A stretch of DNA of 63,783 bases, filler included, from Licmophora abbreviata (Eukaryota), in assembly GCA_900291995.1 (NCBI GenBank). It is 11 parts of 11 records of this genome, joined end to end, with 100 filler letters (N's around TTAATTAATTAA, not from the genome) between each part and the next. Parts side by side here need not be neighbours in the genome. Positions count along the whole stretch, not along the records: positions 1 to 12,722 come from OLMU01002968.1; positions 12,823 to 17,775 come from OLMU01002969.1; 9 more parts are not named here. One strand, written 5' to 3'. The position numbers and the translations under genes are program-made. Each line of letters begins with the position of its first letter. Position 1 is the first letter of the stretch. Shown piece by piece: positions 1 through 62,500 of the stretch. The notes below the pieces were generated by a model. It did not search any database and was not told where the DNA came from. It was given only the letters and a program-made list of their open reading frames with translations.

Positions 1-23
1 TCCCGGGCAAAACATTCGTCCGC

Positions 24-1151
24 ATGCGGCGACAAAAAACTGGCGCCAATATAGAGTCTGCGAGGTTTCCTGAAAAATCTGCAGTAGTCCTTGAGCACGC
101 ACAAGAAGGAAACGTTTCCAGACGTAAGTTCCTTTCGACTGCGGTCGCTGCGACAGTCGCGACGACATCGTTATTGGCAGTGTCGACTCCCGAAGTCAAC
201 GCGGCTCCTCTTAGCTCCACAAATCTAAAAGACTACCCGAATAGCAACCTGATCGCGTCGACCGCCGCTCCTGCTGTCGACTGGCAAGCAATCGTGCAAA
301 AAGCCACCAAGAAGGCGCTTGGAGGTGGCAAAGCTGGGGCATCCGCCGCTGTCGTGCAAGTCTCCAGTCTTATGTGGCTTCGTACCGCGATGAATTACCA
401 GTATCGATACGGGGGTGACCTTGGAACATCGCTAAAGAAACTCTGGAAAGATGGTGGTATCCCCCGTTTATATCAGGGACTGCCATTTGCCATTGTTCAG
501 GGCCCGCTCACACGCTTTGGTGATACGGCCGCCAACGTGGGCATCCTAGCTTTGCTCGAAAGCTTTGAGAGTACGGCATCGCTTCCGCTCCCCGTCAAGA
601 CAGCATGCGGGAGTGCCGCTGCTGGGCTTTGGAGAATTGTGTGTATGCCGATTGACAGCTCCAAAACAGTCATGCAGGTAGAGGGGAATGACGGGCTGAA
701 GCGTCTTTGGGACAAGGTTGGTGAACAGGGCCCATCGCCACTCTACCAGGGAGCCTTGGCTTCGGCGGCAGCGACTGCTGTTGGACACTTTCCTTGGTTC
801 CTGACCTATAATTTTCTCAATGATAACCTTCCGACCGTTTCAGCGAATGACGATCTGTTGCTCGCGCTTGCTCGGGCCGCTTTTGCTGGTCTCTGCGCCT
901 CGTGCGTTTCCGACTGCACCTCGAATAGCTTGCGAGTCATTAAGACTACGAAACAGACTGGCGCTTTGAGCGGTGACCAAGACGGAGAAGTTAAGTCGGA
1001 GCTGACGTACAAAGAGACGCTTGACTTGATTTTGAAAGAGGACGGTGTAGCCGGGCTCTTCGGACGAGGCCTCCAGACACGACTTCTCTCCAATATGATT
1101 CAAGGAGCAGCCTTCAGCGTACTTTGGAAATACTTTCAGCAAGTTGGTTAG
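24..1151 (+). CDS. Divergent mitochondrial-carrier-family (SLC25-like) transporter with N-terminal targeting-like extension; may be 5'-incomplete
   Basis: Carrier-like repeats MWLRTAMNYQ..., MPIDSSKT, NSLRVIKT followed by LYQG/LFGRG and hydrophobic helices. The frame is open to the window edge upstream of ATG 24. Contains SRRKFL+hydrophobic+VNA segment. Confidence 0.8.
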   Translation: MRRQKTGANIESARFPEKSAVVLEHAQEGNVSRRKFLSTAVAATVATTSLLAVSTPEVNAAPLSSTNLKDYPNSNLIASTAAPAVDWQAIVQKATKKALGGGKAGASAAVVQVSSLMWLRTAMNYQYRYGGDLGTSLKKLWKDGGIPRLYQGLPFAIVQGPLTRFGDTAANVGILALLESFESTASLPLPVKTACGSAAAGLWRIVCMPIDSSKTVMQVEGNDGLKRLWDKVGEQGPSPLYQGALASAAATAVGHFPWFLTYNFLNDNLPTVSANDDLLLALARAAFAGLCASCVSDCTSNSLRVIKTTKQTGALSGDQDGEVKSELTYKETLDLILKEDGVAGLFGRGLQTRLLSNMIQGAAFSVLWKYFQQVG

Positions 1152-8043: not shown

Positions 8044-8573
8044 GTTTTCAAGTATGTGAGAGAGCAGAGTAGATCGAAGGAACGGTAGAAGGCGTTTGGG
8101 CGATCACAGTTGCGCTGCCTGGACCGGGGTCGAAATTAGAAATTATGAGGCAATATTTATCAATCTTTCCATGTTTCCATCTTGCCATCCAAGATCAAAG
8201 TTAGTCTTGTCGGGAAAACTTTATCGCTCGTGCTTCCTATACTCAAGTAGGATTGTTTATATTTGCTACGGACAGAGATCAGTCTCCACGCTTCAGAGTA
8301 GAGTGACGTGGACCACATTGAATATGAAAGATATTTTCATGTATATAAATGAATCAGAAGAGGCAACCGCGCGCCAGCACGCCGGCGACGCTCGAAAGAT
8401 CCAAAGATCCATCGTCGCGATCCATCATTCCGACCGTGATGATGAAGCGTGCCTCCGACCGTGGACTACACCTTCGACAGCAGTATTGCCGCAGGCACAC
8501 TGCTGTTAGATCATCTCTATATACATTCTTCAATTTGCTCACCATCTTTGTCGACGTGACGGCTGCTGCTGCA

Positions 8574-9404
8574 ATGACGACGACGACGACGACGACATCA
8601 ACAAGTACTCAGCAACGGCTGTCGGGTCAACGAATCTTGGTAACGGGCGGTGGCCGAGGAATCGGACGAGCCATTGCGCTCCTCTGCCATCGCCAAGGAG
8701 CCCAAGTCGCTATTACTTCCCGTACCCGAGCGGAACTGGAAGAAACTGCATCTCTGGCAACACTATCAGACGATACTTGTTCTCGCCCCGTCGCAATGAT
8801 GGAGATCTACACTGCCGACGTGACGAAGCAAGAGGAGGTCGAGACGTTCGTTTCCGATCTGACTCACAAATGGGGTGGCATCGATGTACTGGTTAATAAC
8901 GCTGGGGCATCGCAGCCCACAAAGGGTCCATCAGAAACGTTAGACTCGGACGATCTCAGTCGACTGTTGGATATCAACCTTGTTGCTGTGCACAGGGTAA
9001 CGTCCGCCGTGCTCCGACACTGCATGCTGCCGGCAGGAGCTGGAAGGATTGTCAATATATCCTCACGGGCGGGCAAGGTGGGCCTGCCCAACGTTTCCTT
9101 TTACGTTGCAAGTAAGTTTGCACTGGAGGGTCTCACAGCATCGCTTGCCGAGGAACTCAAGGATAGAAATGTTCAAGTCAATACACTGTCACCAGGCATG
9201 GTCGACACAACATCCTTTCCAAAAGCACCGGGTCGACCGGGAGTTCGAAGTGCAGAGTCGGTGGAGGATGGCTTCTTTGCGGTATTGGAAAGTGACGTCA
9301 CTGGGCATTATCTTCATGTCGATGAGTTGGACGAAGCGAGGGCCAAAGGTCTAGCTGACAATGTTGCTCTCAAGCCGATTCGCGAGCCTCTCTTTAAACC
9401 ATGA
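8574..9404 (+). CDS. Short-chain dehydrogenase/reductase (classical SDR)
   Basis: TGGGRGIG, NNAG, NISS, YVASK, PGMVDT motifs. The start could be further upstream (ORF open from 8349). Confidence 0.9.
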   Translation: MTTTTTTTSTSTQQRLSGQRILVTGGGRGIGRAIALLCHRQGAQVAITSRTRAELEETASLATLSDDTCSRPVAMMEIYTADVTKQEEVETFVSDLTHKWGGIDVLVNNAGASQPTKGPSETLDSDDLSRLLDINLVAVHRVTSAVLRHCMLPAGAGRIVNISSRAGKVGLPNVSFYVASKFALEGLTASLAEELKDRNVQVNTLSPGMVDTTSFPKAPGRPGVRSAESVEDGFFAVLESDVTGHYLHVDELDEARAKGLADNVALKPIREPLFKP

Positions 9405-9726
9405 TGATTGACGATGCTTATTTTAGCGAAGTAAATACTGCCCAAATATGTCCTATGGATACTCAGAGAAGCAGCGGCTGTTGGTGAATCGCGAGAAAGC
9501 TTAAGCATGTATATTCCTATACCCACTCGATTGCTTGCTACAGGTGTTTGGTACGGCAAATCAGACGTCTACTAGTTCGATTGCATCATACTGCAGCTAG
9601 ATACCACAGACCACTCTCCAGTCTTCGCTGCCAGTATGGCCATCGCTAGTTTGGTTTGAACCCTATGTACATATGAAAAAATGGTTCTTGCGTCGCAGCA
9701 CTTCATGCCCTCCGAGCCCTTGGTCG

Positions 9727-12700
9727 TCAAACGTCCGAGATGCCCTCGAGGCGTGTTTGTGACAACATGCTTGGTTCGCCTTCGCCTGATCTTGATGACA
9801 TATGTCGCCGTTGTGTCGTCGTCGGACTCTTGATGCTATTGCGGAATGAAAGTTTCATCTCACTAGTCTTCCTCTTCTCATATCTTAGCCAGGCCGTTGA
9901 AATGGTGCGGACAGCATTGCGCACCTTGTTGGTTATCCGCAGCCGTTCCATTCGATCGCGCACATCGGCTCCGCTCACAGGGGATGCAGTTGTCGTGACT
10001 CGCAAGATGCTATGTGTTTGGTCCATTTGATACCCGAGCAAGCCAAAGGAAACGGTGCGAAAAAACTTCTCGACCCTAGAGCCAACCTCGTGGAACATGA
10101 CACACATGGCACAAAATCGCTGCAGCGAAGCGATGCGCGACTCGTAGAGCTCCATAGCATTGTGTTGCGTTTTTGATAGAATGTAAGCGTCTTTGATTGA
10201 ATGGGCAACCTGGCGGAGACTCTTTCCAAAGTATTCTTCGTCGTTTGGTTTCACTTGAACTAGGCCACGCTGGTCGCGGTCCAAGCTGGTCAGAGTTCGC
10301 TCAACCTGATGGAGTGGCAACAGGTAGTCAGATAATCGCATGCAGTAGTAGTTAGATTCTCAATTTTGTACTTACCTCAACGTCAGCCATACGCGCAACG
10401 CGGAAGAACTGATCGAAATCGATCGTTCCAGTTCCATTGGAGTCGATTTCGTGAAAGAGTCGCAGCGCCCTTTCCTTCTTATTGCTCTTCCTTACGTCAT
10501 TGTACACAGTTACAAACTCGTCTGCGCAAATTCTGCCATCGTTGTCCCTGTCGACTTCTTCAAAGAGGATACGGAGAAAGGCAAGTTCTTCGCGACTCTT
10601 TGTCAAATCAGCAACAATGGATTTGACATCTGCTCGTTCTCGGCGCTCTTTCTCTACAGGAGAAGAAAAAGACCCGAGGAGCGACTTCCTGGAAGTACGC
10701 CGTGACCCCCTTTTCATGGTCATGTATCGTCCCTTGATCGTGTGGGAGCTGGGGCCCGATCCGCTCGTGAGTTCCGAACTATGACTCAGATCACTCGTTG
10801 ACGTTCCTCTGCTATCTCTTGCCCATTTCAAGGAAGATCCCCCACGAGTAGCCCGTCGCCTTCTACCGTTGCTGATGTGGTAGGCACACCCGGAGCTTCC
10901 TCGCGACGCGTCAACCTCAGGATTCATCTCCTCTAGTAACTGCTCGCAGAGAAACTTCGAGCGATGATCATCGAGGAAGATATCCCCTGCTGACAATGCT
11001 ATCGAAGAGGCATTGTGCCCGATTGTAATCGACTCACAAGTACTCCCCAAACTCTGAATGCTGCTGGTCTGGCTCATCGCAAGAACGACAGCCATCTCTG
11101 CAGACGTAAGTGCCGACAAGCGACCATCAGGTCTCCCATAGACAAGAAGAGACCCTCGTACAACTCGGTGTGTGTGACGGTGAAGTAGGTGATCTGTTGG
11201 ATTCCCGCTCAACATGGTCAAGCTTGCGATCGAGTAGGATCGAGCAAATAGTTTCGAAACATATGCTTCTATCGACTGAGCCACCCAAGGGCAGTCCCCG
11301 ACGATGACAGTACGAGCTACCATCCGGTGAAGAAGGCTACGACCTTCCAGCAATCGGAGAAGAATAACACCAATCTGTGGCAAGAATAAGTATATCAAGG
11401 AGTCAAAGAAGCGAGCTGCGGAAGATAAATGGAACCAGCTCATGTGAGAGGGGAGGCTGGAAAACAAGAACGAAATACTGACTTCTTCGCATCACAGCTT
11501 CGCAGCTCGTCGAGTTCTCCTACCAATGTAATATCCTGTCCCAGACTCATTGATGCCCGCGGCGACTGCGACCCCTGTGACAAGCGGATACCCACTAGTA
11601 ACTGTGACAACAATATACGCGATGACGAGCATGTACGACTTTGCAATTTCGAGAACATGTCTACTCCAGTGCCTCCCACTTTCCCGAAGCTCCCATTCTG
11701 TTCTGGTATCGAGCGGCGAGCCAATTCGAGAGGCACCGACGATCTCTTCTAAGGCGGTGATATTATCTTGGTTGCACTTTTCAAGAATTCCCAGGTCATG
11801 GTCCGTCACAATCGCTCCACTCAGATCACGAAAGCGTGGTTCACCCACGACCATGCAAATATGCATGAATAGGTTAGTGAGAAGCTGGTGCGTCGCAGCG
11901 ACGGTGAGCGAGCAAGGCTCGGCAGGGCGTATGCCAATGTCCGTTGAGAAAATTCGACTAGAAAATATCTCATCATCATCACCAAACATGGTGCGTAGCT
12001 GCTTGCCAATTTGAGTATCCCATTCGCTTGTCACGACGAATATGTTTTTCGTGACCGACTGCAGAAGGCTTGAGCAAGCGAGGGGTGAGAAATTACCGCC
12101 ACTGTGACTGACGATAATGACAATTGTGTCGTGAAGGTCCGGGATATCCTTCGACACAGGGTGACCAGTGGCAGGAGTGGGTAGCTCCTGCTGACCAAAC
12201 ACACCAAGGATTTTGTTCGCGGACAAAGATCTCACAAATAAACCAGGAAATGCCTTCTGTAGATCCGAGGCAAACTGTTCGGCGACCCACAAGGAGACCT
12301 CTGTTCCTGTTACAAGAATGTCAACCGTAGCGCCGCGGGAAGGGATTTTTCCGTCAACACGAGCCTGTAGCCTACTTCGCAACCTTCGAGATAAGTTCCA
12401 TGCCGTCAAACGGTTCAGACCGGCCTTTCTCCAGCTCGCTTGGATCGATCTACAAAATTTTGGAATATCTTTGATGTCCTTTAAGACAGGATCTCTTTCC
12501 GCCCCTATCGGATAAGGCAGTATAAGATCTTTATCTTCCAGCGAAATCAGCCGATGAAACAGCGACGGGTCGCTTGACACACGATTCGGCTGGTACAGAG
12601 TAACTTCCACGTTTCCGTCCATAGCCTCGTATACTCGGCACCGAGTATCTCGGATGGCTATGCCACGCATGACGCCCCAGTCGAGAAGGCACACTTCTCC

Positions 12701-14527
12701 GCTCAGATCATTGAGATCAAGTNNNNNNNNNNNNNNNNNNNNNNNNNNNNNNNNNNNNNNNNNNNNTTAATTAATTAANNNNNNNNNNNNNNNNNNNNNN
12801 NNNNNNNNNNNNNNNNNNNNNNACGCATGACGCCCCAGTCGAGAAGGCACACTTCTCCGCTCAGATCATTGAGATCAAGTCGAAAACTCCCGAGATCTAT
12901 CAGTTCAGAAGCCAGGCTGTGCTAGAGTATCGCCTACCGGCGATGAGAAGCTAAGTCCAGCTTTTACGGCAGCTTGTTCGGATCCAAAGCATATCACCCC
13001 TTTCCGAGGAAAGAAACCTACACTCATTGATTGGCCTTTCGCCGCAATGCACACTTGACGGTCGGCGTCCAATGAGCACGTCACCATGAGCCCGAACGAT
13101 CCGGAAGCTCTTCTGAAGAAAATGCGGAGGCTCTCAAACAAGTCATGGTCGAAGAAGGCCTTGACTACCGTTTGCATCAGCTGAAATGACGTAGTTCCAG
13201 CTGCCTCTTCAATTGGCCGACCAGAAATGTGACTCGCAAGCGCGGTCCCTTTGAAGGCTTTTTCTGACTGAGCTGACCATGTCTCAACCAGCTCACTGCG
13301 CAGAGTTGCGTCGGATCGAACCTCGTCAAGCGCCACATCATTTTGTTTACAAAATTCCAGCAGACTCGCCTCCAGCTTTTCCCCCACAATCGCAAATTCG
13401 CTCCAAGTGGGTACTGGAAACGCAGACTTGAATTCAACTGCACTGTGCGGACTGTCAAGCAAGAGAGCATATCTCAGACTGAGTGCTATCGACCCCGCGC
13501 TTCTCAGGATGTCCATCAGCCCCGCAATCGCTGCACTGTCTACGAGACAAGGCATGGGAGCTCCGGTGGCTTGTCCCAGCCACTGCTGAATCGCTTCCAG
13601 ACTGGCATGCACGGAGCCAATTTTGTAGAAGTCAAGATCACCATTGTGCGTTACGAATGTTTCTACCCGTCGGACGCGTGCGCACGGGGACCGATCGGTC
13701 GAGTACAAGTCAAACACTCGTATACTCCGTGGTGGAGTCCATCGGTGAGGATGCGTCCCATCAAAGGTCGCCTTGGATGACGTTGCAAATCTAGTATGAC
13801 CAAGGAAGGCCCGGATACCGGGCTTGAGGCGTCGCGTAAATGTCGTCAGTGCGTCCTTGTCAATCCGACGGCGCAACCGTACGGACAAATCACTTCTCTT
13901 GCCATTTACTACCCGGCTTCGAATCCCACGTAGTTCACCATCTGTCCCAGTTGTGGACCATGCCACGACACCCCCAGACTGTGCACCCCGCATCATGGTA
14001 ATGCGTATCATTTCTTGGAGCAGATCTAGAGCTGTTTTTCCCTGATCGACGCTGGTCCAAGCGGACGAATTGAGCAGAATGACACCGAAATTTCCACAAA
14101 AGAGTGTCGAAGGCCCCACACCTCGAATGACTCCGATCGAGAATAAATCGGTTGCGAGAGCATCCACTACTGTGACAACCGATGAGAAAACAGCTTCACG
14201 AGACAATCGATGTCGATAGAACAAGCAACAGGCGGCTACCAGAACACTAGTCGACCATCCTGCATGTCGCACGACGAAGATGTGTCCAAGCTCTGAATCG
14301 TCGTTGTAGTGTGATGGTATAGAACACGATCTTCCCAAGAGCGCCCTCAGCAAAATGATCGGAAGCAAGTTAATTTCAAAGGGAAGTCTCCCGTGAACGA
14401 CCGTCGCTGCGACCAAGTGCGAGATTTCGTGAAGGCATCCCCACAGCAGGTAGAATGCAAGCGCCTGCGGGGTGGACCAAGAGCGACTTCTCTTCGTACA
14501 ACCAAAGATTGACTTTCTCGTCCTCAT
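9727..14527 (-). CDS. ~1,490-aa GlmS/GFAT-like multidomain membrane protein: HExxH TM domain + class-II glutamine amidotransferase + SIS + TM + SIS-like with EF-hand pair
   Basis: CGNFG, RGAQSGG, GHTRFAT, HPH, THNGD, DSAAI match GlmS glutaminase motifs; IVSHSGG and AEPCSLTVAATHQ match SIS1; DRDNDG and DSNGTG are EF loops. Pieces join via a +1 indel at ~12915, a 58-bp overlap across the N gap, and introns 11523-11416 and 10375-10306. Confidence 0.8.
12723..12822. other. Artificial scaffold spacer
   Basis: 44 N + TTAATTAATTAA + 44 N. The flanks overlap by 58 bp. Confidence 0.98.
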
Positions 14528-14826
14528 CCTTCTGTGCAGAGACAAAGTTGTGTCCGATAGAACACTTGCATCATCGAACAGTTTAGCCGTCTTCCTTCAT
14601 CATCGCCAATGTAATTTTCAATTGTCAACCTACCGCGACGCCGCGGTGTCCGGGCCGGAACTCCGAAGTTTGCGCGCCCTTTTATGCTAATCCAAGTTCC
14701 AAATTGGAGCTGGAAGTTTGACGCTCCTTTCGGGTTTCGAATATCGTGTGACGTGGTGCAAGCGCGCCTTCCGATTTGGCGCGAACGATGCGATGACGAC
14801 GGCGGCAATCCCGACGATGCATGTTC

Positions 14827-14844: not shown

Positions 14845-14922
14845 GTGCACACTTGCACACTCAGCTCTCACATTCCTCGTCCTTGTCTTGTGTCTTGCCG
14901 CGCTCAGCTGTGAGTGTCCATC

Positions 14923-15315
14923 ATGCTCTCATCATGTGTCCGCACGATTCGGTTTCTTGTACTGGCGTTAGCAGCCGGCGTGTCAGCCTTCACGCCGATG
15001 ACGACGTCGTGTTCTCCTCGTCGTCGTCTCTTAGCTCCCATGACGACGAGGATGGTGGCCAAAAAAGTCGAGGTGTGTGGGTTCAAGGACTGCAAGGCGC
15101 GTGGCGGCGGTCCCCGTCTCGAGAAACTAGTCAACTACATATTGGAAGAGCGTGGTATCCAAAAAGAAGGTATCGTGTCTGTGGAAATGTGCGAATGTCA
15201 AGGAGAGTGTGGCTACGGCCCGAATCTGGTCGTCGACGGCAAGATTGTCAATCAAGTCAAGGGCGAAGCGGCAGTTTTGAAAGCACTTGGTCTCGAAGAG
15301 GAGGAAGAAGAGTAG
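14923..15315 (+). CDS. Plastid-targeted thioredoxin-like [2Fe-2S] ferredoxin
   Basis: Signal peptide VSA-FTP. Cys motifs VCGFKDC and CQGECGYGPN. Confidence 0.85.
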   Translation: MLSSCVRTIRFLVLALAAGVSAFTPMTTSCSPRRRLLAPMTTRMVAKKVEVCGFKDCKARGGGPRLEKLVNYILEERGIQKEGIVSVEMCECQGECGYGPNLVVDGKIVNQVKGEAAVLKALGLEEEEEE

Positions 15316-16863: not shown

Positions 16864-18244
16864 ATGAGACTACATCATTGTGTACTCACCTTTCTTGCGT
16901 ACTGGATACGACTGGAGAATGCTTCGGTGAAAGGATTTGGTCCGTCTGCCTCCTGCCGACCATCGCGACGCAGCACCGCGATAACATCGCCCAAGACTAC
17001 GACGACGATGAGTCTTCATCCTCCACGACAATCGTCGTCTGGTGATCCATGCTCTGCGTCAAGCAGACGGCGGGCCTTTCTCTTCTGGGTGGCATGCGGG
17101 AGTGCCACTGCGCTGCTGCCAGCGTCACCTTCGCATGCGGGAGAAGTCGGTGCTCGTATCAACCAGGCCGTCACCAAGTCCGATGTAGGAGTTAGTGTAC
17201 GGCGATCGGTCGTAAGGGGGGCTCAAGTGATGGACCAAGTCGATGGGCAGTGGGAACACTTTTCCGATCGATTTGGTTTGGGCAGTGCTCGCAGCAAGCA
17301 AGATGCCAAACCAAAACCAAAAGTTATACCCGATCCCTTGCCACTCGATGCCGATGTTGCAATGGCAATGTTAAGCATTGTCGATGAGGTGCGATGACAA
17401 AGGCGAGGAAGACTCAGTCTACATAGATCGCACCTGTCTCTAACGAATTCACTTGTGTGCCATTATGTTTTATCAACAGGCATTTGTATCTGCTAGCGGG
17501 ATCTCCGCAACGACCTTGTCGGAGAAACAACAGAAAGTTGCTGACTTGGTCCGACCATCTTTCGAGAGGTCTGGCATATCACTGGACGGGCCTCTCACGA
17601 CGGCAGAACAATTCAACTTTCTTTCCTATATCCGATTCAAAGCTTATAGTGACCTGACGGTGGAGAAGAAAGTAAACTTTCCTCGCTTTCGATCCAACTT
17701 TGAACGCCAAGCAGGACAGAAACTGGTATCCTTGCTACTACCGGGCTATCGGCTTCCTACCACGAGCGTCAAGAANNNNNNNNNNNNNNNNNNNNNNNNN
17801 NNNNNNNNNNNNNNNNNNNTTAATTAATTAANNNNNNNNNNNNNNNNNNNNNNNNNNNNNNNNNNNNNNNNNNNNGCATTTCAGCTGAGAATGCTAGCAG
17901 TGAACGAGGCTTGTCGAAGACTGCGTGACACAGGACTGGTCGCAGCAACTGAGGCCAGCGTTGTCGAATCTGATCGGTTGGAAGACTGGGCCGAAGATCT
18001 GTCGGACTTGCAGTTTAGCTTGGCACTCGACGGTGATATAACAATGCAAAGTCAGATTTTACTACAGGAACAGGGCTTTCGATTCTACCCGGACTATGCA
18101 AAGTACATATTTGCAACGCTTCTGCAGATGGAGGGGCAGGAAGTCACGATCGACGCCTACTACCTCGATACCGACTACAATTCTGACCCGAAGCGCTTCG
18201 AGGTCAAGGAAGTTTTGCTTAACGTGCAAATAGAGTCGCAATAG
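16864..18244 (+). CDS. Uncharacterised thylakoid-lumen-targeted protein; intron and assembly gap
   Basis: Signal peptide (VKG-F), Ser/Thr/Arg-rich transit peptide, SRRRAFL…SHA twin-Arg signal. Intron 17389-17479. Coding continues after the gap to TAG 18244. Confidence 0.7.
17776..17875. other. Artificial scaffold spacer
   Basis: 44 N + TTAATTAATTAA + 44 N. Confidence 0.98.
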
Positions 18245-28039: not shown

Positions 28040-29670
28040 ATGTCTTGCCATAGCTGGACACGCCTGAATCATCTCTTGTTGCATAGCGAGCATGGCACTC
28101 ATCATGGCCTGCATCTGCCTCATCATCCAGACCTGGAAGATAAGAACGATGACAAGGAGAAGAATCGTTACATGCGTGGTAGAAGCAAGCAGCGGCGACA
28201 CAACCCCTTGTGGCGGCGCTGTTGGTGCTTCGAATTTGACTTTCTTCTCCGGCGGCTTCCCCTCGATTATCTCCGACATGAACTCAAACATGCCAGTAAA
28301 GTACTTGATGAACTCAGACCTCGTTGTATTCGCAATGACGGAGCGGAACATGGTGGACTTGACGAATCGAATATCAAACTCAGCCAAAACCAACACCTTT
28401 CCATCTCGCGGCTCCACTAAGACACGGTCTGTGACGTAGAAGCAGTCCGTCATAGGCACATCTTGCACGTATGTGTCTGTCTCAATCGAGATTCCATGAT
28501 CTCCATAGCGACGAAAACGTTGTTCCTTCTTGGCACNNNNNNNNNNNNNNNNNNNNNNNNNNNNNNNNNNNNNNNNNNNNTTAATTAATTAANNNNNNNN
28601 NNNNNNNNNNNNNNNNNNNNNNNNNNNNNNNNNNNNCGCTAGTGGAGCATTCACTGGGTGACTGTACTCAATAGTGCGTACTAGGAGCGGGCTGCCTTCC
28701 TCCTGGGCCTCCCAAGTCGAGGTGACAAGGTCCTCATCGCCATTCGATTCGAGAAACGTAGGTAGCCCATGCTTAGCCTCATCGGCGATGAACAAATCAA
28801 AGAACGTTTGTAGATTGCACGCCAGCTCATGATCCTAATGAAAAGTTTGGTCCACAAGCGTTGTTAAAAACAAGCAAGGATTGAAAAAGAAGAACACGCG
28901 CACGCGACCATGTGCTACAACAAAGTTCAATGACCTACGCATACCTTCAAAGCGCAGTCAGAGTACCCCTCATCAGCGGGTTCCTGCAGCTGCATCCATG
29001 CGTCTTCAATATCTTCCACGATGTCGTCTCCTTCGATTTCCGGATGCGGCGTCATCGCGCTCGGTGGCATGCGAATCGATTTGTAGGCTGGTAATTTCCG
29101 GGTCGAGAAGTGTTCGCGAGCCTCTTTGAGATTCGCGAGACTTGCTGCCGCCACGTAGGACGCTTCTTCACTGACCGGGGCTTCATCTTCGGCGTGTCGC
29201 ACTTCGGCTAGTGGATCGCTGGTGGTGCGTCGCAGAGTGTTCCGCAGCGGTGGCACTTTTCGGGGATCCGTATAAGATCTGTAACTCACGCCTCCTCCAT
29301 GTAAAGCCTCGCTGTGCAAAGATACGAGCGTCGCCCAACAGCGATCCAGATGAGTAACTTCTCGAAATTCATGGTTAGAATCCTGTGTCACCAGCATGAA
29401 ACCCTTATTTCCCTTGATGACCTTGATCACATCGATCCATCGAAGCTTGAGTTGGCGCTCAAAGAAGAACATCATACCACGAAAATAGATCCCCTCTGAT
29501 CCGGCTTGCAACACTCCCTTTGCATTCTGGTAGCAACAGGAAAACTCGGACGCAGCCTTTTCAATACCACTATCTTCTGATTTCTTAATTTCCGCGTCTC
29601 GAGGCATCACTTCGCCAGGCATCGAAGCGACCGAATCTCTTGCTCCTGTTGTGGCAGCCGTCATGGTCAT
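28034..29670 (-). CDS. GRAM + VASt (LAM/GRAMD1-like) sterol-transfer membrane protein; intron and gap; 5' end uncertain
   Basis: EFSCCY…G…IYF…FFE…LRWIDVIKV (GRAM). Intron 28944-28835. RTIEYSHPVNAPLA and DVPMTDCFYVTDR (VASt). C-terminal TM plus coiled coil. Confidence 0.8.
28537..28636. other. Artificial scaffold spacer
   Basis: 44 N + TTAATTAATTAA + 44 N. Confidence 0.98.
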
Positions 29671-30242: not shown

Positions 30243-33128
30243 ATGCGACCCCGGCGTCCTAGTTTCCTCCGAAAAGGCAGGACCAAGAGCTTGAGTTCCG
30301 ATCCAAGGGAAGAAGGCGATTCCAAGCAAATAAAAATGGCAAATACCACGAAGAAAGAGGACCTTGTGACTAGGGCAAGATCCAAGAGCTTGAACTCGGA
30401 CCCAATAGGAACTCAACGATACCGACGGAGGCAAGAAGACAGAAGTAGCGAATGAACCTGTCGGGGTTCTGAACCAACCACCAATACCAGACAATTATAA
30501 TGAGCACATTGATGAGAAGGGATCTGAGAAACCGAACGAGTCGGTGCCTCTGACGTCTCTTCCGGCGTATCCAGTATCGCCGCGCAATTTGATTGCTCCC
30601 CCACCTGCGCTTCGTGCTGCTACCGTGAAAGAAGCTTGTGAGGAAATTTGNNNNNNNNNNNNNNNNNNNNNNNNNNNNNNNNNNNNNNNNNNNNTTAATT
30701 AATTAANNNNNNNNNNNNNNNNNNNNNNNNNNNNNNNNNNNNNNNNNNNNACCTGCGCTTCGTGTTGCTACCGTGAAAGAAGCTTGTGAGGAAATTTGGC
30801 AATGCGAGGATCCCGAGCAGGCCTCTATGTGGCTGAAACGTCTTCACCAGGCATTTCTGTGCACAAGATTAGACGCATATGACCCATCGGAGGCCTTTGT
30901 GTCCCTGTCGGGAGCTGCACTTCGGTTTCACGGTAGTCTTCCATCATTGAAAGACGAAAGTAAGGCTTCCGCCGATAGCTACGACCTTGATAGTCTCTGG
31001 TGCGTCTGGGAAGAGGCTTTATGGGCAGCGGCTGCACTTGCGAGGGTTTGCGTTGGAGCTGCATGGAGAAGCCAGCTGCGGAGGCGGCGAGCGTTCATTC
31101 TAGGACGGGGAGGTCTTGACGAGTTGAGTGGCGCGTCGCCCGTCGAGGCCGCCATGTCTCCTTCACCCGTAGCTACTGAAATGAAAAACAGTGTGAACGG
31201 AAGCAATCAAACGGCAGACGCTTCCCCGCTGGATATTGTGGCGGCCGATATCTCAGCGTCTCAGCGATCTTTCTCGCCGATGACTGCTTCATCCTATGCC
31301 GCTTCGCGCATGGACTCCCTCTTTCCGCCGATTCAGGAGAGATTGCCGGCAGCCATGCTGAGATTCGCGTCGTCTGCAATAGAAACTGCAATTGCACCAC
31401 CTTCGAGGATTTGCGGGGAGGAGGATCGGCGGAAATGGCAAGATCGCAGCAAGTCCCTGGCTGAGGCACAACGAGAACTCGTTCTGGCGTTATGCTATGC
31501 GACGGCGGAAGAAGAACCTTTGGATGACACAAACGAAGAAGGTGAGCCCCAATGGACAATTCTGGAGGCGCATGGACCTGTCGGAGTTATGGTTCGGTTC
31601 TGGTTCCAGTCGTGCTTCCTGGATTCGGATGCAGACAAGCTATTGAAAGACAAAGGCGCTTCAAGCATTGACTACGAAAGTTATAGGTTCATGGACTGGG
31701 GGTGCGTGCTACAGGTCACAAGAGCCGCTGCTGATCTAGTGTCGGCTGGGTGGCGTCCTACTTGGACTGGAGGTGTTGCGGAAGATTTGGTTTCTTTCTT
31801 GTTGGCAGTTAGCAAGGAAGGGCTGGCGCTGATCCGAAGCGATTCGTTGCTGGAAACGGCGTCGGATACTGAGTATGGAGAGAGAATATTAGCATCATCG
31901 CTTAGTGTGGTCGAAGCAGTTTCGGTTCTCGCCTCGATTGGCTCTACCGGACTGATTCCGATTGAAAGTCAAGCGAGAGTCGTTCAGGTGCTTTGTGAGC
32001 TGCAGTTTGAGACCATGCCTGGCAACATGCATTACGACTCTTGCAATGACAAAGGTCGCAGCATCGATTACGATGATCATGTACTGAAAGCCCTACGCTC
32101 AAATAGACAAACTTGCCATGCGGACATCGTCGACCTGCTGTGGATGATGTTGGCCCATGAAACCTCGGCCGCCACCGCGTTGGCGAAGCTGCTTGATATG
32201 ACAACCCCGTGAGCAGCTCAGGAATTGCGAGCGATGACGCGACAGAGAGCTCTATACTTTTGCGGAGAACTTCTGTCGCCGTGAGCACTCTAGGCGGTGC
32301 GCTATGGGGGCTGCCACCCAACAATCCCGGGATATCAGGGCTGCGCATTAGCTGGAACTCTTTTCTCGCATCGCTCGCTGACATTGCCGACTTCATCCGA
32401 TACAATGCACAAAAGAAGGTCTCTTTCGTGGCAACTCAAGGTGACAACTCTTCAAAAGGCGACGACATTTATTTGTCACTGCTCCTGGAAGTAATTACAG
32501 CTCTCCGGAAGTTCGCTGACTCAGAGCTCTTGTGCCCTGATGCCTTGATACTCGTCGATGAATGGAAGCCTTTTGTTCGGGCCGTGTGCGAGGGTATTGC
32601 CTTTTGGTTAGACATTTGTCATTCCCAAGATGCGCTCTCTCACGCTTACAAGGCTACCTCTATTCGCGGAAAGATTCGGAACGAAGCCGTGTCTCTCGTC
32701 TCAAGGATCAGCTCCTTTCTCAGTACGTGCTCGAGAATGGAGGATAGCTCTTTTCATCTGATTGTCAATAACAACGACCTACACGATCTCTACGTGTGTC
32801 TATTGAGGCAGGCAGTGCCTCGATTGGAATCTCGTATAGGTACATCCTTGGCGCTATCGACTATTCGATCGTGGGCAAGTATTGGATTCTTGCCTCATCG
32901 AAGTGAGGAGTGGATTCAGACCGTGACGTCTATCATATCAGAATCGTTTGCAGTATACGATGACGCTTCTGCGGGTGGTAAAGGTGCTTACGTGCACTCG
33001 CCCTCGGTGCGGCTTGAAGCCCTGGTTTCCATAACGTATGACGATGAAGATGGACGATCAGGTTTACCTGAAAATACCTGGGTGCCGGCAGTCTCTCCAT
33101 TGGTCCTTTCGAGATTTGTGCGAGAGCA
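30243..33128 (+). CDS. Large helical protein resembling the tuberin (TSC2) N-terminal region; 3'-truncated by gap; frameshifts at ~30408 and ~32207
   Basis: LIPIESQARVVQVLC, AVSTLGGALWG, LLLEVITALRKF, FLPHRSEEWIQTV…SVRLEAL occur in the same order as TSC2 N-terminal blocks recalled from memory. Pieces join across a 48-bp overlap at the gap. Confidence 0.55.
30651..30750. other. Artificial scaffold spacer
   Basis: 44 N + TTAATTAATTAA + 44 N. The flanks overlap by 48 bp with one mismatch. Confidence 0.98.
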
Positions 33129-33228
33129 NNNNNNNNNNNNNNNNNNNNNNNNNNNNNNNNNNNNNNNNNNNNTTAATTAATTAANNNNNNNNNNNNNNNN
33201 NNNNNNNNNNNNNNNNNNNNNNNNNNNN
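33129..33228. other. Artificial scaffold spacer
   Basis: 44 N + TTAATTAATTAA + 44 N. Confidence 0.98.
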
Positions 33229-41553: not shown

Positions 41554-44027
41554 TTAGCTCTCATCGTCGGATGACGATACCCCAAGGACCAGTGGGTCGT
41601 TAACTTTCTTCAGATAGCCATCGATAGACGTAACAAAGTCTGGAACCCAGTCGCCCCGATCTACATCCCAAACCTCACCCTTTCGAGGACGACCAAGAGG
41701 TCTCGGGTGAACGCCACTCTCGGGAAGCTTCGACATGTCCCCGCGGATCAACGTCTTTTCCATCGGCAGGCGACCTTTGGGTTTCCGGTGGGAGCCAACA
41801 TAGTCGCTGCCCCTGGGGTTCGAGCGGGGTAGTGTTCCAGCAGCAAATCTTATTGTCTCATCGCGATGCGCAGCCTTTGCCTGGGGGATAGTCGGAACAG
41901 TGGCACGGCTCCTAAAAGGCTCACCGACAAGCTTTCGCGGACTACCTGATGGCGCCGGCTGAAGGTCGTTCGCAAGAACCTTTGAGACGCCGATTGAAAC
42001 AGCGATCTGCTGGCCTCGCGCGGGGCCCGTCATGTCTTTCTTATCATTCGTCGACAGCTTCTCTGGGCCCCTAGGGTCGAATCGTCGAACCCTTCCGGAA
42101 AATAAGTCTTGGACTGGCGCTTGCTCCTGAGATATCACACGGCTTCCGGAACGCCCGACTTCTCCGGTCGACGGGTAGACAATCCAACCTGTGTACCGTC
42201 TTGATAGCATAGCTTGCAGACGNNNNNNNNNNNNNNNNNNNNNNNNNNNNNNNNNNNNNNNNNNNNTTAATTAATTAANNNNNNNNNNNNNNNNNNNNNN
42301 NNNNNNNNNNNNNNNNNNNNNNTCTCCTTGTCGGATAGGCCCTCGAAGGATCCGTCTGCGCGTGCCGCAAGAAACCGACCACTGCGTTGATGCACATGAC
42401 GAATGATAGACTTCACAACCTGCTTGCCTTCTCCGTGGCTGGCTAGCGCGTACTTTGAGCGACGCAATGCGACTAGTCGTCGAAGCCTCCGGTTCCCGGT
42501 GAGTTTCCATGGGCGTTCGTAACCAAACACCACGTCATTTTCATTGGAGAACGCTTCTGCAGGATTTCGTACTGAGTGATCCCCAAAAGATTCCTTATCT
42601 GCTGATGGGTCATTTGGCAAAGACTTTCCGAGGTATTTACCAGAGCACGGCACCGTGAACTCGATATGCCTTGCGGGTGGAACCATTTCGACCACATCTT
42701 GGGCTACCAGTTGTGGTTTCAACCAAGCAAGCCATTCGCTGCATCGTGCTGCTGCGGCAGCGACGAGCTCGTTAGACTGGAAGATATGTAGCGCGTTTGC
42801 TCGTTCTAGCTGTCGTCTCAGCTTTGACGGACACTTGTCACAGGCGACCCAGTGACGCACCGTTGCCACAAGAGCACGGCCCAATCTGTCAGGTTGTATC
42901 CACATCGAGTTGTCCACAACAATATACGGTGACGTGGTCTTGTGATTAGAGGATTTATCACAATTTCCATGACACAATCGACACTGGAACAAAAGCAGGT
43001 TTGTGGCATGAGCGTAGAGAACATCACCAAAAATGTGTCGGCGAGACGGCGGTGGATGTGCTCGGTGGATCATGACAACCTCGAAATTTTCCATTAGATG
43101 CAGCAAAGTCCGCGGCTCGAAGATCAACTTTTGAACGGGAATGCAAGTTAGGTTGGAAGCTATGACTGTGAAATCTGGTCCATTGGAAAGCCGACGACGG
43201 GCCTGTACCATCACACTCTCCAGGTCGTCGTATATTTCGTCGGCCACAGCCACTAGCGCAGGTGAATCTTCAACTGGAGCAACGAGACGCAATTGAATCG
43301 GGGATTGTTTCACAAGGGGGCGTGGTAAGAGTGATCCAGCAGGCTTCTCTGTAGGTATTATGGGCCCTGGCATTGGTTTTTGGAGTGAGGGCGCAGGCTG
43401 CGGCTGCGGTGGAACAGGAAGGTATTGTCTTTGATTGGTATAGTGTGCATTCGGTAGAGCCTCCAATGGCATTGCAGGTCCCCGGGGAGGGAACATGCCC
43501 CCGCCTGCAGTTAACGAATGGTTTGGTTTAGGCAATGGTTTCCGGTGTGTGGGGTTTGGAGGCTGCTCCTGTGGTAGACTAGGAGGGTATTGTCTTCGAT
43601 TGGGGTCGGATATATTCCGATCAGGCGGCACCGGCATTGCACTCACTCGGGGAGGAAGTTTCCCGGCGCCGCCTGTATTATCAGCGTGCGTCGAAAGCTG
43701 AGGACCAGGAGTGTTCATGGGGAACGGGGCATGTGCCGAGAATCGTGGGTTTCTGTGCAGGAGCGGCTTTCGTGACTGTTCAAGGGGTGTCGGCGTGGAC
43801 ACGCCCTGTGGCGCGGCGGGAAGAGGACCGTTCCATCTTTGGCCATTATACCCTGTCCACGGAGAACCATACCGATATCGATTTTCCCAGCCTGGATATG
43901 GAGCAAAGAAGGCAGGGGGATAATTTCTATGGGGAAGATCCGGATTCGGGCGAGGAGCGTGGACAAGAGGGCGGGGGTCCACGCCGTTGGGTGCTGGTGC
44001 GTCGGGAGGTCGGCTCCCCTTTTCCAT
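41554..44027 (-). CDS. Pro-rich protein with putative Cys/His module, DUF6824-like domain and AT-hook-like C-terminus (joined across gap)
   Basis: NENDVVFG…GNRRLRRLV…Y…KQVVKSII…GRFL. QCRLC…HWVAC. The post-gap ORF on the same strand ends RPLGRPRKGEVWD…GDW. Confidence 0.6.
42223..42322. other. Artificial scaffold spacer
   Basis: 44 N + TTAATTAATTAA + 44 N. Confidence 0.98.
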
Positions 44028-57249: not shown

Positions 57250-58248
57250 ATGTCCACCGCTACCTTTACTACCTCCATGGGCGTCTTCAAGGCGGAACTT
57301 TTTACGGACAAGATGCCAATCACATGGTGAGACAGTCAAGTCGAACGTAAACCTGTTGGCATTTGAGCCGTTTTGGATCGTCGAATGGTTTTACTTTTGT
57401 TTTCGCATGTCGCTTCTCTCACCTTCTCCTCGCGTTTGTCCTACCTTTCTCTACCGTGTATTCGTGCAGTGGAAACTTTATCGATCTGGCCAATAGTGGA
57501 TTCTACGATGGCATTGTAAGTGAGATGTCGCCTTGCGATCATGCACACGCAAAAACTTACAACAAATCTCAACACACAACCCACGCTCACCCCACCCCAA
57601 ATTTATCGTACGACAGCACTTCCACCGCGTCATTCCCAACTTTATGAATCAGTTCGGCTGTCCCCACGCCAAAGATCCGAACTCCTCTCGCGCCGGAACC
57701 GGCGGTCCCGCACCTAAATCGTCCTTTCAGGGATGTGACGGCAAGACGTACCAGCGCAATTCCGAGGGTGGCATTCCCGACNNNNNNNNNNNNNNNNNNN
57801 NNNNNNNNNNNNNNNNNNNNNNNNNTTAATTAATTAANNNNNNNNNNNNNNNNNNNNNNNNNNNNNNNNNNNNNNNNNNNNGGGACACTCAGTATGGCCA
57901 ACACGGGGCAGCCCGAGTCGGGAGGAAGTCAGTTCTTTATCAATGTCGCGCACAACTCCTTTCTTGATTGGTTTGATCGTTCCAGTCCAAGTGCGCACCC
58001 TGTATTTGGAAAGGTACGTCGTGAATCACGAGCAGACATTTGTGTATTTTTGAGTGGAAAGAGTTGTTCAATGTTTAGAAGGACTCTCTCACGTCGAAGG
58101 GTCCCCATCATGTCCCATGCCTATGCCCTTACTACTCATATAATAGATCACAGATGGGATGGAGCTTGTCGAAAAGATCTCGAAAGTCCGCAGTCAAAGC
58201 GACAACCCTGTCGAGCCCATCAAGATGATCTCGGTTCGTGTTGCGTAG
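57250..58248 (+). CDS. Cyclophilin-type peptidyl-prolyl isomerase; at least 4 exons plus gap
   Basis: Introns 57327-57469, 57516-57616 and 58014-58146 give MPITCGNFIDLA…[19 protein letters not shown]…GTGGP…SMANTG…GSQFFIN…LDW…HPVFGKITDGME. Confidence 0.93.
57782..57881. other. Artificial scaffold spacer
   Basis: 44 N + TTAATTAATTAA + 44 N. Confidence 0.98.
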
Positions 58249-59998: not shown

Positions 59999-60098
59999 NN
60001 NNNNNNNNNNNNNNNNNNNNNNNNNNNNNNNNNNNNNNNNNNTTAATTAATTAANNNNNNNNNNNNNNNNNNNNNNNNNNNNNNNNNNNNNNNNNNNN
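59999..60098. other. Artificial scaffold spacer
   Basis: 44 N + TTAATTAATTAA + 44 N. Confidence 0.98.
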
Positions 60099-62400: not shown

Positions 62401-62500
62401 NNNNNNNNNNNNNNNNNNNNNNNNNNNNNNNNNNNNNNNNNNNNTTAATTAATTAANNNNNNNNNNNNNNNNNNNNNNNNNNNNNNNNNNNNNNNNNNNN
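62401..62500. other. Artificial scaffold spacer
   Basis: 44 N + TTAATTAATTAA + 44 N. Confidence 0.98.

What the first reader, a model, noticed from the sequence alone, without database searches (positions are those of the whole stretch)
9727..14527. Hidden ~1,490-aa membrane protein: protease-like domain + cryptic amidotransferase + split SIS + EF-hands
Seen: four minus-strand ORFs join into one gene via two canonical introns, a 58-bp gap overlap and one +1 indel; the exon lengths sum to 3n+1, consistent with a single indel. The domain order is HExxH TM domain, CGNFG glutaminase domain, SIS1, two or three TM segments (~11350-11640), SIS2-like region, EF-hand pair, C-terminal block (ESRIASLQRF…RVTTTASPVSG). 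Known: canonical GlmS/GFAT is a soluble ~610-700-aa enzyme with Cys at the mature N-terminus and no TM or EF-hand domains. Inference: this is a membrane-embedded, proteolysis- and Ca2+-gated amidotransferase or a glutamine/sugar-phosphate sensor. Automated annotation would fragment it or mislabel it as GFAT.
Basis: partly seen in the sequence, partly recalled or inferred. Interest (0 to 1): 0.85.

Follow-up and report, generated by a model that had tools for sequence, protein, structure and literature searches.

The report
Membrane-anchored GlmS-like amidotransferase with EF-hands
A diatom gene, broken up only by assembly faults, encodes a large membrane protein that joins a protease-like membrane domain to a relative of the sugar-aminating enzyme GlmS carrying calcium-binding EF-hands, and no member of its widespread algal and cyanobacterial family has been studied.

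The parts
9727..14527 (-). Whole coding region, ATG 14527-14525 to stop 9729-9727. It encodes 1,487 aa after removing two introns, the gap cassette with one copy of the 58-nt overlap, and base 12911.
12911..12911 (-). Extra base that causes the +1 frame change. It is absent from an independent run's contig.
   Evidence: one letter left out at 12911; contig 12823-12963 otherwise identical; tblastn frame switch 12911/12909
12665..12880 (.). Unmerged contig junction: 58-nt identical flanks (12665-12722 and 12823-12880) around a 100-nt N/TTAATTAATTAA/N cassette (12723-12822).
11416..11523 (-). Intron A, 108 nt, GT..AG, phase 1, holds an in-frame stop.
   Evidence: junction ...GYYI|ARFFDSLIY matches P0001
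10306..10375 (-). Intron B, 70 nt, GTAAGT..CAG.
   Evidence: junction ...MADVE|VERTL matches P0001
14144..14473 (-). N-terminal four-helix membrane domain (residues 19-128), site-2-protease-like. H33-E34-x-x-H37 lies at 14417-14431 and D127 at 14147-14149.
14099..14143 (-). Low-confidence linker (residues 129-143) that ends just before the nucleophile. Presumed cleavage region.
   Evidence: pLDDT under 50 for 132-145; inference
12947..14098 (-). Class-II (Ntn) glutaminase domain, GlmS/GFAT type (residues 144-527). Cys144 lies at 14096-14098. A helical insert spans about residues 360-472.
11669..12508 (-). First SIS subdomain of the isomerase-like domain (about residues 621-900). The phosphate loop S754-H-S-G-G-N759 lies at 12092-12109.
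   Evidence: on homologue P0027, mapped; hhalign 658-880 vs GlmS 263-452, E 1.2e-4; (S754 184/184, S756 181/183; position 759 is T in 182/183 but N in the window)
11342..11659 (-). Membrane hairpin inserted between SIS1 and SIS2: hydrophobic residues 904-937 (11558-11659) and 950-973 (11342-11413). Intron A lies between them.
   Evidence: hydropathy; long helices 379-415 and 432-461 in P0027; mapping
10946..11329 (-). Second SIS subdomain (residues 978-1105) with the invariant motif N-P-x-D-H-x-V-H-R-x-T-H-R-V-x-R-G ... G-R-P-D-G-R.
   Evidence: fold, on P0027; K1003 153/154, D1023 149/149, H1027 148/148, H1031, R1032 and R1035 147/147
10156..10945 (-). Insert of about 240 aa inside SIS2 that carries the EF-hand pair. 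Loop 1 is DRDNDGRICADE (10517-10552). Loop 2 is DSNGTGTIDFDQ (10409-10444). Intron B lies in this range.
9955..10155 (-). C-terminal block (residues 1346-1412): last helix and tail of the isomerase-like domain, ...RVTTTASPVSG.
   Evidence: P0027 model up to 888-889 pairs with the last residue, 608, of E. coli GlmS; R1352, R1358, R1397, T1401 and P1404 invariant
9730..9954 (-). C-terminal extension (residues 1413-1487), helical then poorly conserved.

Best explanation
SHOWN. This is one intact protein-coding gene of a diatom that looks split only because of the draft assembly. The faults are an unmerged 58-nt contig overlap and one spurious base. The gene encodes a 1,487-aa integral membrane protein that is a distant paralogue of GlmS/GFAT (glutamine:fructose-6-phosphate amidotransferase). 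From the N-terminus it has five parts. (1) A four-helix membrane domain with HExxH and a later Asp, resembling the core of site-2 (M50) intramembrane metalloproteases. (2) A GlmS-type Ntn glutaminase domain whose nucleophile Cys144 is internal. (3) The first SIS subdomain, with the phosphate-binding S-x-S-G-x-T loop. (4) A two-helix membrane hairpin. (5) The second SIS subdomain, interrupted by an insert of about 240 aa with an EF-hand pair, then the last helix and tail that in GlmS close the sugar site. INFERRED mechanism. The protein is made as an inactive precursor. Cleavage between residues 143 and 144 frees the Cys amino group that Ntn amidotransferases need. The cut is made either by the adjoining HExxH domain in cis or by Ntn-type self-processing. 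After the cut the enzyme stays on the membrane through the hairpin. It hydrolyses glutamine and passes ammonia to a phosphorylated sugar-like acceptor held by the SIS pair. Ca2+ binding to the EF-hand insert shifts the last helix and tail and so tunes activity. The acceptor is probably not handled exactly as in GlmS: by eye, the GlmS base Glu488 is Ala/Ser here and Lys603 is Arg.
Confidence: 0.55

Rival explanations
1. It is a receptor or signalling module rather than a biosynthetic enzyme. The glutaminase and SIS domains sense glutamine and a sugar phosphate (carbon/nitrogen status). The membrane and EF-hand parts pass that state on, with little or no net synthesis.
For: In cyanobacteria the gene is the last of a co-directional cluster of phosphorelay genes, with a 4-nt overlap to the gene before it. 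In 8 of the 9 cyanobacterial genome loci the multi-receiver/HisKA/PAS gene lies directly upstream; the ninth (L010) is cut at the contig end. A more distant clade has a Ser/Thr kinase fused to an amino-acid-type periplasmic binding domain upstream (L044, L056, L057). One locus has a CHASE2 cyclase upstream, and a Verrucomicrobiaceae locus has type III glutamine synthetase divergently upstream. One eukaryotic member carries ACT domains. The GlmS base Glu488 seems to be missing (by eye).
Against: Every glutaminase catalytic residue is invariant across more than 200 sequences, which argues for real turnover. Only 22 of 55 metagenome loci examined have any same-strand ORF within 400 nt upstream, and its type varies. 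The phosphorelay loci are close relatives, so they count as about one observation. Neighbourhood says little for the eukaryotic genes.
Confidence: 0.22
2. It is simply this organism's GFAT/GlmS, making glucosamine-6-phosphate for hexosamine or chitin synthesis, tethered to a membrane.
For: GFAT/GlmS are the best structural matches for both halves. The only NCBIfam families touched are glmS models. The phosphate loop is conserved; cyanobacterial members read SQSGQT against GlmS SQSGET.
Against: Scores are 12-26 bits against cut-offs of 381-418. Identity to GlmS is 8-21% in the structural alignments. All 4 cyanobacterial genomes that carry the family also hold a canonical glmS at 799-820 bits, so the family is an extra enzyme. 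Glu488 and Lys603 appear replaced (by eye). This rival could not be tested in the window's organism because its genome is not held.
Confidence: 0.13
3. This copy is a decaying pseudogene or a relaxed allele. The frameshift is real in this genome and the substitutions at invariant sites mark loss of function.
For: One extra base stands in the record. There are 5 deviations at 123 near-invariant columns, against 0 in 66 of 87 homologues.
Against: An independent run's contig lacks the extra base and is otherwise identical over 140 nt, though at depth 3.5 and possibly from another strain. Apart from that base there is no stop in 4,464 nt. The terminal branch is 0.26, against 0.21 for its sister. 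The extra base lies 88 nt from a contig end in a fragmented draft with 10 gap cassettes in 64 kb.
Confidence: 0.08
4. The ORFs are separate neighbouring genes and the long protein is an artefact of joining them.
For: As deposited, the record has stops between all four ORFs.
Against: There are 303 long homologues. All 262 proteins stored at that point map colinearly on P0001, many spanning almost its whole length, and they include complete transcripts. Cyanobacterial homologues are single uninterrupted ORFs of 1,203-1,245 aa. The SIS fold needs pieces from three of the four ORFs.
Confidence: 0.02

Closest known systems
GlmS / GFAT (glutamine:fructose-6-phosphate amidotransferase, isomerising; NCBIfam TIGR01135)
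   Different: Identity is 8-21%, and scores lie far below the family cut-offs. No Pfam GATase or SIS hit at E 0.1 or better. The Cys is internal, behind a 143-aa membrane domain. A helical insert of about 110 aa sits in the glutaminase domain. A membrane hairpin separates the SIS subdomains. An EF-hand insert precedes the last helix. By eye, Glu488 is Ala/Ser and Lys603 is Arg. The family co-exists with canonical glmS.
Site-2 proteases (MEROPS M50: RseP, SpoIVFB, MjS2P; Pfam PF02163 / PF13398)
   Same: HExxH lies in the first long membrane helix and a conserved Asp in a later one. The four best structural matches of the N-terminal domain are all of this family. The ranges model 13..128 to 3b4r 34..149 put H33, H37 and D127 near the zinc ligands that I recall as H54, H58 and D148 of MjS2P. 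That numbering is from memory; a paper search did not confirm it.
Stand-alone double-SIS phosphosugar enzymes (NagB-II GlcN6P deaminase, AgaS tagatose-6-P isomerase, FrlB/FraB deglycases)
   Different: They are soluble proteins of about 320-390 aa, with no glutaminase, membrane or EF-hand parts.
PurF and glutamate synthase (Ntn amidotransferases made with a propeptide)
   Different: The propeptide here would be a 143-aa membrane domain with its own metalloprotease-like motif. The acceptor domain is SIS, not PRTase or FMN/Fe-S.
Calmodulin-type EF-hand pair (Pfam PF13499)
   Different: A single pair inserted into an enzyme domain. Loop 2 of the window has Q at position 12. Present in diatoms and a pelagophyte; absent in the cyanobacterial sequences aligned, and Pfam saw no EF-hand in the green-algal and most other eukaryotic members scanned.

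Membership tests
Class-II (Ntn) glutamine amidotransferase domain | Four-layer alpha/beta/beta/alpha Ntn fold | tested here: met
Class-II (Ntn) glutamine amidotransferase domain | Catalytic Cys, oxyanion Asn-Gly, and substrate-binding Arg and Asp conserved | tested here: met
   C144 208/208, R180 219/220, R246 241/241, N295 243/243, G296 246/246, D330 237/237. C144 aligns with the GlmS Cys. I recalled the GlmS residue roles from memory.
Class-II (Ntn) glutamine amidotransferase domain | Cys is the first residue of the mature protein | not testable with these tools
   The Cys is internal (residue 144) in the window's protein. 40 homologues without the membrane domain start at MCGN[FL]G. Cleavage must be shown by protein chemistry.
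Class-II (Ntn) glutamine amidotransferase domain | Pfam GATase_2/4/6/7 over the gathering score | tested here: not met
   No family at E 0.1 or better for the window's ORF1, and none at E 1 or better for it as first member of A1. None among 45 homologues at E 0.01 or better.
GlmS/GFAT (TIGR01135, NF001484) | Score over the curated cut-off | tested here: not met
   11-26 bits against cut-offs of 381-418, in 5 of 7 proteins scanned; the other 2 had no hit.
GlmS/GFAT (TIGR01135, NF001484) | Double-SIS isomerase domain with C-terminal tail | tested here: met
GlmS/GFAT (TIGR01135, NF001484) | Phosphate loop S-x-S-G-x-T | tested here: inconclusive
   In the family: S 184/184, S 181/183, G 183/183, T 182/183. 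The window reads S-H-S-G-G-N, with Asn in place of Thr.
GlmS/GFAT (TIGR01135, NF001484) | Isomerase catalytic residues (E. coli Lys485, Glu488, His504, Lys603; numbering recalled) | tested here: inconclusive
   I have only a by-eye register on the secondary structure: K1003 (153/154) to Lys485, A1006 (A 120, S 31) to Glu488, H1024 (143/148) to His504, R1397 (115/115) to Lys603. No residue-level structural alignment was available.
Site-2 protease (M50) | HExxH in a membrane helix and a third ligand Asp in a later helix | tested here: met
   H33 157/157, E34 153/157, H37 157/157, D127 184/191. They lie in helices 19-45 and 110-128. Cyanobacterial members read HGxGH.
Site-2 protease (M50) | Pfam PF02163 / PF13398 over the gathering score | tested here: not met
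   The best is P0212, at 25.8 bits against 26 on PF13398. No hit in the window.
Site-2 protease (M50) | Fold of the catalytic membrane core | tested here: inconclusive
EF-hand pair (PF13499, PF00036) | Over the Pfam cut-off; canonical 12-residue loops | tested here: met
   EF-hand_1 scores 42.9 bits (cut-off 25.4) and EF-hand_7 scores 37.8 (cut-off 30). Loop 1 DRDNDGRICADE is canonical. Loop 2 DSNGTGTIDFDQ has Q at position 12.
SIS domain (PF01380) | Pfam hit over the gathering score | tested here: not met
   No hit at E 0.1 or better. SIS1 is seen by hhalign at E 1.2e-4 and by language-model features at 0.90. SIS2 is seen only by fold.

The most novel reading that the evidence does not exclude
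The family is a new class of membrane-bound amidotransferase that is licensed by intramembrane proteolysis. A site-2-protease-like domain fused in front of an Ntn enzyme cuts its own chain at the membrane surface to unmask the catalytic Cys. In diatoms, Ca2+ then sets the activity through EF-hands spliced into the lid of the sugar site. The product would be an aminated phosphosugar (or a related compound) other than glucosamine-6-phosphate, made at a membrane in response to signals. The family is conserved from cyanobacteria to the major groups of algae.
Probability: 0.2. Interest if true: 0.85.

Novelty: new variant of a known kind. Interest (0 to 1): 0.66.

Why it matters

Tried and rejected
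RNA evidence: no RNA holder was listed for 9727-12720, so expression was not tested.

The window's genome is not held, so paralogues and a canonical GFAT could not be sought in this organism.

I then laid only 12823-14700, so 9600-12722 was never laid and the introns have no read support.

A 46-nt GT..AG intron (12967..12922) would also restore the frame. I rejected it because homologues read straight through ...AVKAGLSFSSP.G... and the run's contig differs by a single base.

Sequence-only searches mostly failed.
- Pfam found nothing but EF-hands.
- PDB phmmer found nothing.
- PDB profile searches gave PurF at E 0.26 and GFAT-1 at E 0.29.
- The profile of A2 was swamped by calmodulin.
- The tool's hhalign against one GlmS sequence gave probabilities of 3.5-4.9% and failed internally on A2.
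- Local hhalign found no likeness between the C-terminal module and GlmS SIS2 or the family's own SIS1, although the fold later matched.

The C-terminal module alone finds only fragments of the same family.

The N-terminal profile found no S2P in the PDB by sequence.

Sampling 301 genomes of the cyanobacterial phylum found the family only in the starting genome, so its frequency there is low or the first-look filter missed it.

The tree is unrooted, several rows I labelled 'euk' are unnamed, and a Verrucomicrobiaceae row sits on the eukaryote side. It therefore does not show a cyanobacterial (plastid) origin.

Literature: nine searches returned no paper on this family or architecture. I saw listings only, plus one passage of PMC4343526, whose Asp148 belongs to another protease. 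The library lacks most subscription journals.

Earlier findings of this scan: nothing.
Full report
1. What is in the sequence

Between 9727 and 14596 the minus strand carries four long stop-to-stop ORFs. The record is a chain of small contigs. The window holds ten identical 100-nt cassettes (44 N, TTAATTAATTAA, 44 N). The cassette at 12723-12822 lies inside the gene. It is the only one of the ten whose flanks overlap: 12823-12880 equals 12665-12722 at 58 of 58 nt. Merging the overlap makes ORF1 and ORF2 contiguous apart from a +1 frame change.

tblastn with a homologue places that frame change between 12911 and 12909. One public run held part of the stretch. Its 185-nt contig (depth 3.5) matches 12823-12963 with no other difference, lacks one letter at 12911, and runs on past 12823. 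A 46-nt intron would also mend the frame. Homologues read straight through that segment, so I rejected the intron.

ORF2/ORF3 and ORF3/ORF4 are joined by GT..AG introns of 108 nt (11523..11416, with an in-frame stop) and 70 nt (10375..10306). Spliced by coordinates, the coding sequence is 4,464 nt and encodes 1,487 aa with no internal stop. There is no second copy in the window.

2. One gene, and a large family

A search with ORF2 for longer proteins gave 303 hits. The listed ones are 50-65% identical. Many are 1,400-1,670 aa, among them MMETSP transcripts marked complete and proteins of Thalassiosira, Skeletonema, Seminavis, Epithemia, Pseudo-nitzschia and Mayamaea. A scan of 1.84 billion representatives with ORF1 gave 1,017 hits at E up to 0.001. 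All 262 proteins stored at that point map colinearly on the 1,479-aa P0001. The reconstructed protein is 59.8% identical to P0001 over 1,455 columns.

Named members outside diatoms come from the following:
- Pelagophyceae sp. CCMP2097
- Pycnococcus and Pseudoscourfieldia (two paralogues)
- Cymbomonas
- Klebsormidium
- Closterium
- Symbiodinium

Their names are 'hypothetical', 'EF-hand domain-containing', 'Calmodulin', or 'glutamine amidotransferase type-2 domain-containing'.

Bacterial members are single ORFs of about 1,000-1,250 aa. Named ones are from Leptolyngbya, Phormidesmis, Phormidium, Chamaesiphon, Nostoc, Scytonema, Chroococcidiopsis and Waterburya. There is also one Verrucomicrobiaceae MAG and a 2,582-aa protein of an unnamed NCBI contig. 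The family is sparse in cyanobacteria: only 1 of 301 sampled genomes of that phylum matched, and that was the starting genome itself.

An unrooted quick tree of 42 rows places the window with P0001 (support 100) inside a diatom group (100). The ten named cyanobacterial rows fall on one side of a branch (96). The window's end branch is 0.26, against 0.21 for its sister. Several rows I labelled 'euk' are unnamed, and the Verrucomicrobiaceae row sits among the eukaryotes. The tree therefore shows no donor.

3. What the parts are

Sequence methods see only the EF-hand pair:
- Pfam: EF-hand_1 at 42.9 bits and EF-hand_7 at 37.8 bits.
- PDB profile: calmodulin at E 2e-12.

Pfam, NCBIfam and PDB sequence searches otherwise give nothing significant. 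The only families touched are glmS models, at 11-26 bits against cut-offs of 381-418.

Glutaminase domain. The AlphaFold2 model of the window's own first 540 residues has pLDDT 79.5 and pTM 0.68. Residues 145-528 match these chains:

|---|---|
| human GFAT-1 (rmsd 3.1 Å, 217 aligned, 18% identity) | 16.6 |
| E. coli GlmS | 15.6-16.1 |
| PurF | 13.8 |
| glutamate synthase | 11.1 |
| EgtC | 10.9 |
| asparagine synthetase | 9.3 |

Local profile-profile alignment pairs residues 144-261 with GlmS 2-89, Cys with Cys (E 2.9e-5). I aligned 293 family sequences to a family model. The number covering each position varies, and the glutaminase set is essentially invariant: C144 208/208, N146 208/208, R180 219/220, Q183 220/220, R246 241/241, T249 241/241, N295 243/243, G296 246/246 and D330 237/237.

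N-terminal domain. Residues 19-128 form four long helices. H33 and H37 are kept in 157 of 157 sequences, E34 in 153 of 157, and D127 in 184 of 191. In the scan of 48,161 PDB representatives, the four best matches of this domain are all site-2 proteases:

Isomerase half. The second fold was a natural 944-aa fragment, P0027, which is 50.4% identical to the window over 927 columns. Its model has pLDDT 77.0 and pTM 0.79. It matches as follows:
- Francisella isomerase domain: 344 of 357 residues aligned.
- Human isomerase domain: 354 of 365 residues aligned.
- Other double-SIS enzymes follow: NagB-II 26.5, AgaS 25.4, FrlB 22.5.

Mapped to the window, the layout is:

| Window residues | Part |
|---|---|
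| about 621-900 | SIS1 |
| 904-937 and 950-973 | two-helix membrane hairpin |
| 978-1105 | SIS2 strands and helices |
| 1346-1412 | last helix and tail; they end where GlmS ends |

Cyanobacterial members lack the insert, and their C-terminal block follows SIS2 directly. SIS1 is also visible by profile alignment (residues 658-880 to GlmS 263-452, E 1.2e-4) and by language-model features. SIS2 is visible only by fold.

4. How it most likely works

Ntn amidotransferases use the free amino group of an N-terminal Cys (established knowledge, recalled). Here the Cys is residue 144. Forty stored homologues that lack the membrane domain begin exactly at MCGN[FL]G. In eight loci the ATG-TGT start follows directly on the upstream gene. 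The fused forms must therefore be cut before Cys144 to be active. The linker 132-145 is predicted to be disordered.

The cut could be made by the adjoining HExxH domain or by Ntn-type self-processing. In favour of the first: HExxH and the Asp are kept in nearly all eukaryotic members. Against it as a general rule: cyanobacterial members with this domain read H-G-x-G-H.

After cleavage the enzyme would stay on the membrane through the hairpin. With four plus two membrane helices, all soluble domains lie on one side.

The phosphate loop is conserved (S754 184/184, S756 181/183, G757 183/183, T759 182/183), and cyanobacteria read SQSGQT. This argues for a phosphorylated ligand.

By eye, on the secondary structure, GlmS residues correspond as follows:
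- Lys485 to K1003
- His504 to H1024
- Glu488 to Ala/Ser
- Lys603 to the invariant R1397

These equivalences are inference, and the GlmS numbering is recalled. If they hold, the acceptor chemistry differs from that of GlmS.

The EF-hand insert enters just before the helix and tail that cover the sugar site in GlmS. That makes Ca2+ control of this lid the simplest reading. Loop 1 is canonical, but loop 2 of the window has Q at position 12.

5. Context and rivals

All 4 cyanobacterial genomes with the family also hold a canonical glmS at 799-820 bits. The family is therefore not the housekeeping enzyme there.

In the Leptolyngbya/Phormidesmis group the gene ends a co-directional cluster:
- a hybrid histidine kinase;
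- a HisKA-receiver-ParA-like protein;
- a multi-receiver/PAS protein, with a 4-nt overlap to the family gene.

The multi-receiver gene lies directly upstream in 8 of the 9 cyanobacterial genome loci; the ninth is cut at the contig end. These loci are close relatives.

Among 55 metagenome loci examined, 22 have a same-strand ORF within 400 nt upstream. I scanned 17 of those 22:
- six are multi-receiver/HisKA proteins;
- two are Ser/Thr kinases fused to a periplasmic-binding domain, and a third unscanned locus has the same ORF coordinates;
- one is a binding domain alone;
- two are cupins;
- the rest are unrelated.

One locus has a CHASE2 cyclase upstream. The Verrucomicrobiaceae locus has type III glutamine synthetase divergently upstream. 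One eukaryotic member ends in ACT domains. This keeps a sensor or signalling reading alive, but the invariant catalytic set argues for turnover.

A pseudogene reading rests on two things: the extra base, and 5 deviations at 123 near-invariant columns (N553, N759, T1065, Q1391, T1399). Only 2 of 87 homologues deviate that much. Those columns were defined on the homologues, which flatters them. Against the pseudogene reading stand the contig, the otherwise open frame and the ordinary branch length.

6. Novelty

Nine literature searches found nothing on this family or on a site-2-protease/amidotransferase fusion. I saw listings only, and subscription journals are largely outside the library. Automatic annotation already names some members as type-2 amidotransferase or SIS proteins.

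This is a new variant of a known kind: a GlmS-derived enzyme with three additions (a protease-like pro-domain, a membrane hairpin and EF-hands) and probably altered acceptor chemistry. Expression, cleavage, substrate and Ca2+ response remain open.

Noticed in passing
window 12723-12822, 17776-17875, 28537-28636, 30651-30750, 33129-33228, 42223-42322, 50036-50135, 57782-57881, 59999-60098, 62401-62500: The window is a chain of eleven contig pieces (1.3-12.7 kb) joined by identical 100-nt cassettes (44 N + TTAATTAATTAA + 44 N). Only the first cassette has overlapping flanks. Genes that cross the other nine joins may be broken in the same way.
   Followed up: partly
window 8349-9404 (+): A short-chain dehydrogenase/reductase ORF (adh_short, E 2.4e-51) lies convergent with the 3' end of the gene. 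It has a Thr-rich, low-complexity N-terminal part.
   Followed up: partly
window 14914-15315 (+): A small ORF with a thioredoxin-like [2Fe-2S] ferredoxin domain (PF01257, E 6.2e-7) lies divergent from the gene's 5' end.
   Followed up: partly
L009 14-6204; L007 68-6030 (and L002-L005, L008, L025, L027-L031, L040): A conserved cyanobacterial gene cluster lies upstream of the family gene. It holds a hybrid histidine kinase with two receivers, a HisKA-receiver protein fused to a ParA/MinD-like P-loop domain, and a multi-receiver/PAS/HisKA protein. The last gene overlaps the family gene by 4 nt.
   Followed up: partly
L044 5271-7679; L056 and L057 5536-7926; L076 2205-3842: In a more distant bacterial clade the upstream same-strand gene is a Ser/Thr protein kinase fused to a Peripla_BP_6/ANF-receptor amino-acid-binding domain. 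In L076 it is the binding domain alone.
   Followed up: partly
L011 3410-5758 (-): In the Verrucomicrobiaceae MAG a type III glutamine synthetase (GSIII_N and Gln-synt_C-ter, in two ORFs) lies divergently next to the family gene. No canonical glmS over the cut-off was found in that MAG.
   Followed up: no
protein P0194 (2,068 aa), residues about 1706-2021: A eukaryote-type family member from ENA carries C-terminal ACT domains (amino-acid-binding regulatory modules). Pfam saw no EF-hand in it.
   Followed up: no
protein P0247 (2,582 aa): A bacterial-looking protein from an unnamed NCBI contig carries the whole module (HEWSH membrane domain, CGNAG, SIS, hairpin, tail). The module sits behind about 1,100 residues that have a signal-peptide-like start and no Pfam family.
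   Followed up: no
proteins P0322, P0356, P0405; P0371, P0374; P0384: Leptolyngbya sp. NIES-2104 has three paralogues. Two metagenomic members of about 1,590 aa are fused to WD40/beta-propeller-type repeats. One Oculatella member is named 'restriction endonuclease, SacI family', which looks like a misnomer or a fusion.
   Followed up: no
window residues 553, 759, 1065, 1391, 1399 of the reconstructed protein (for example N759 at about 12092-12094): The window's copy carries unusual residues at five positions that are at least 97% invariant in the family. They include Asn for Thr in the phosphate loop, and Gln for Arg and Thr for Ala in the tail. These may be sequencing errors in a rough draft or real changes.
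   Followed up: partly
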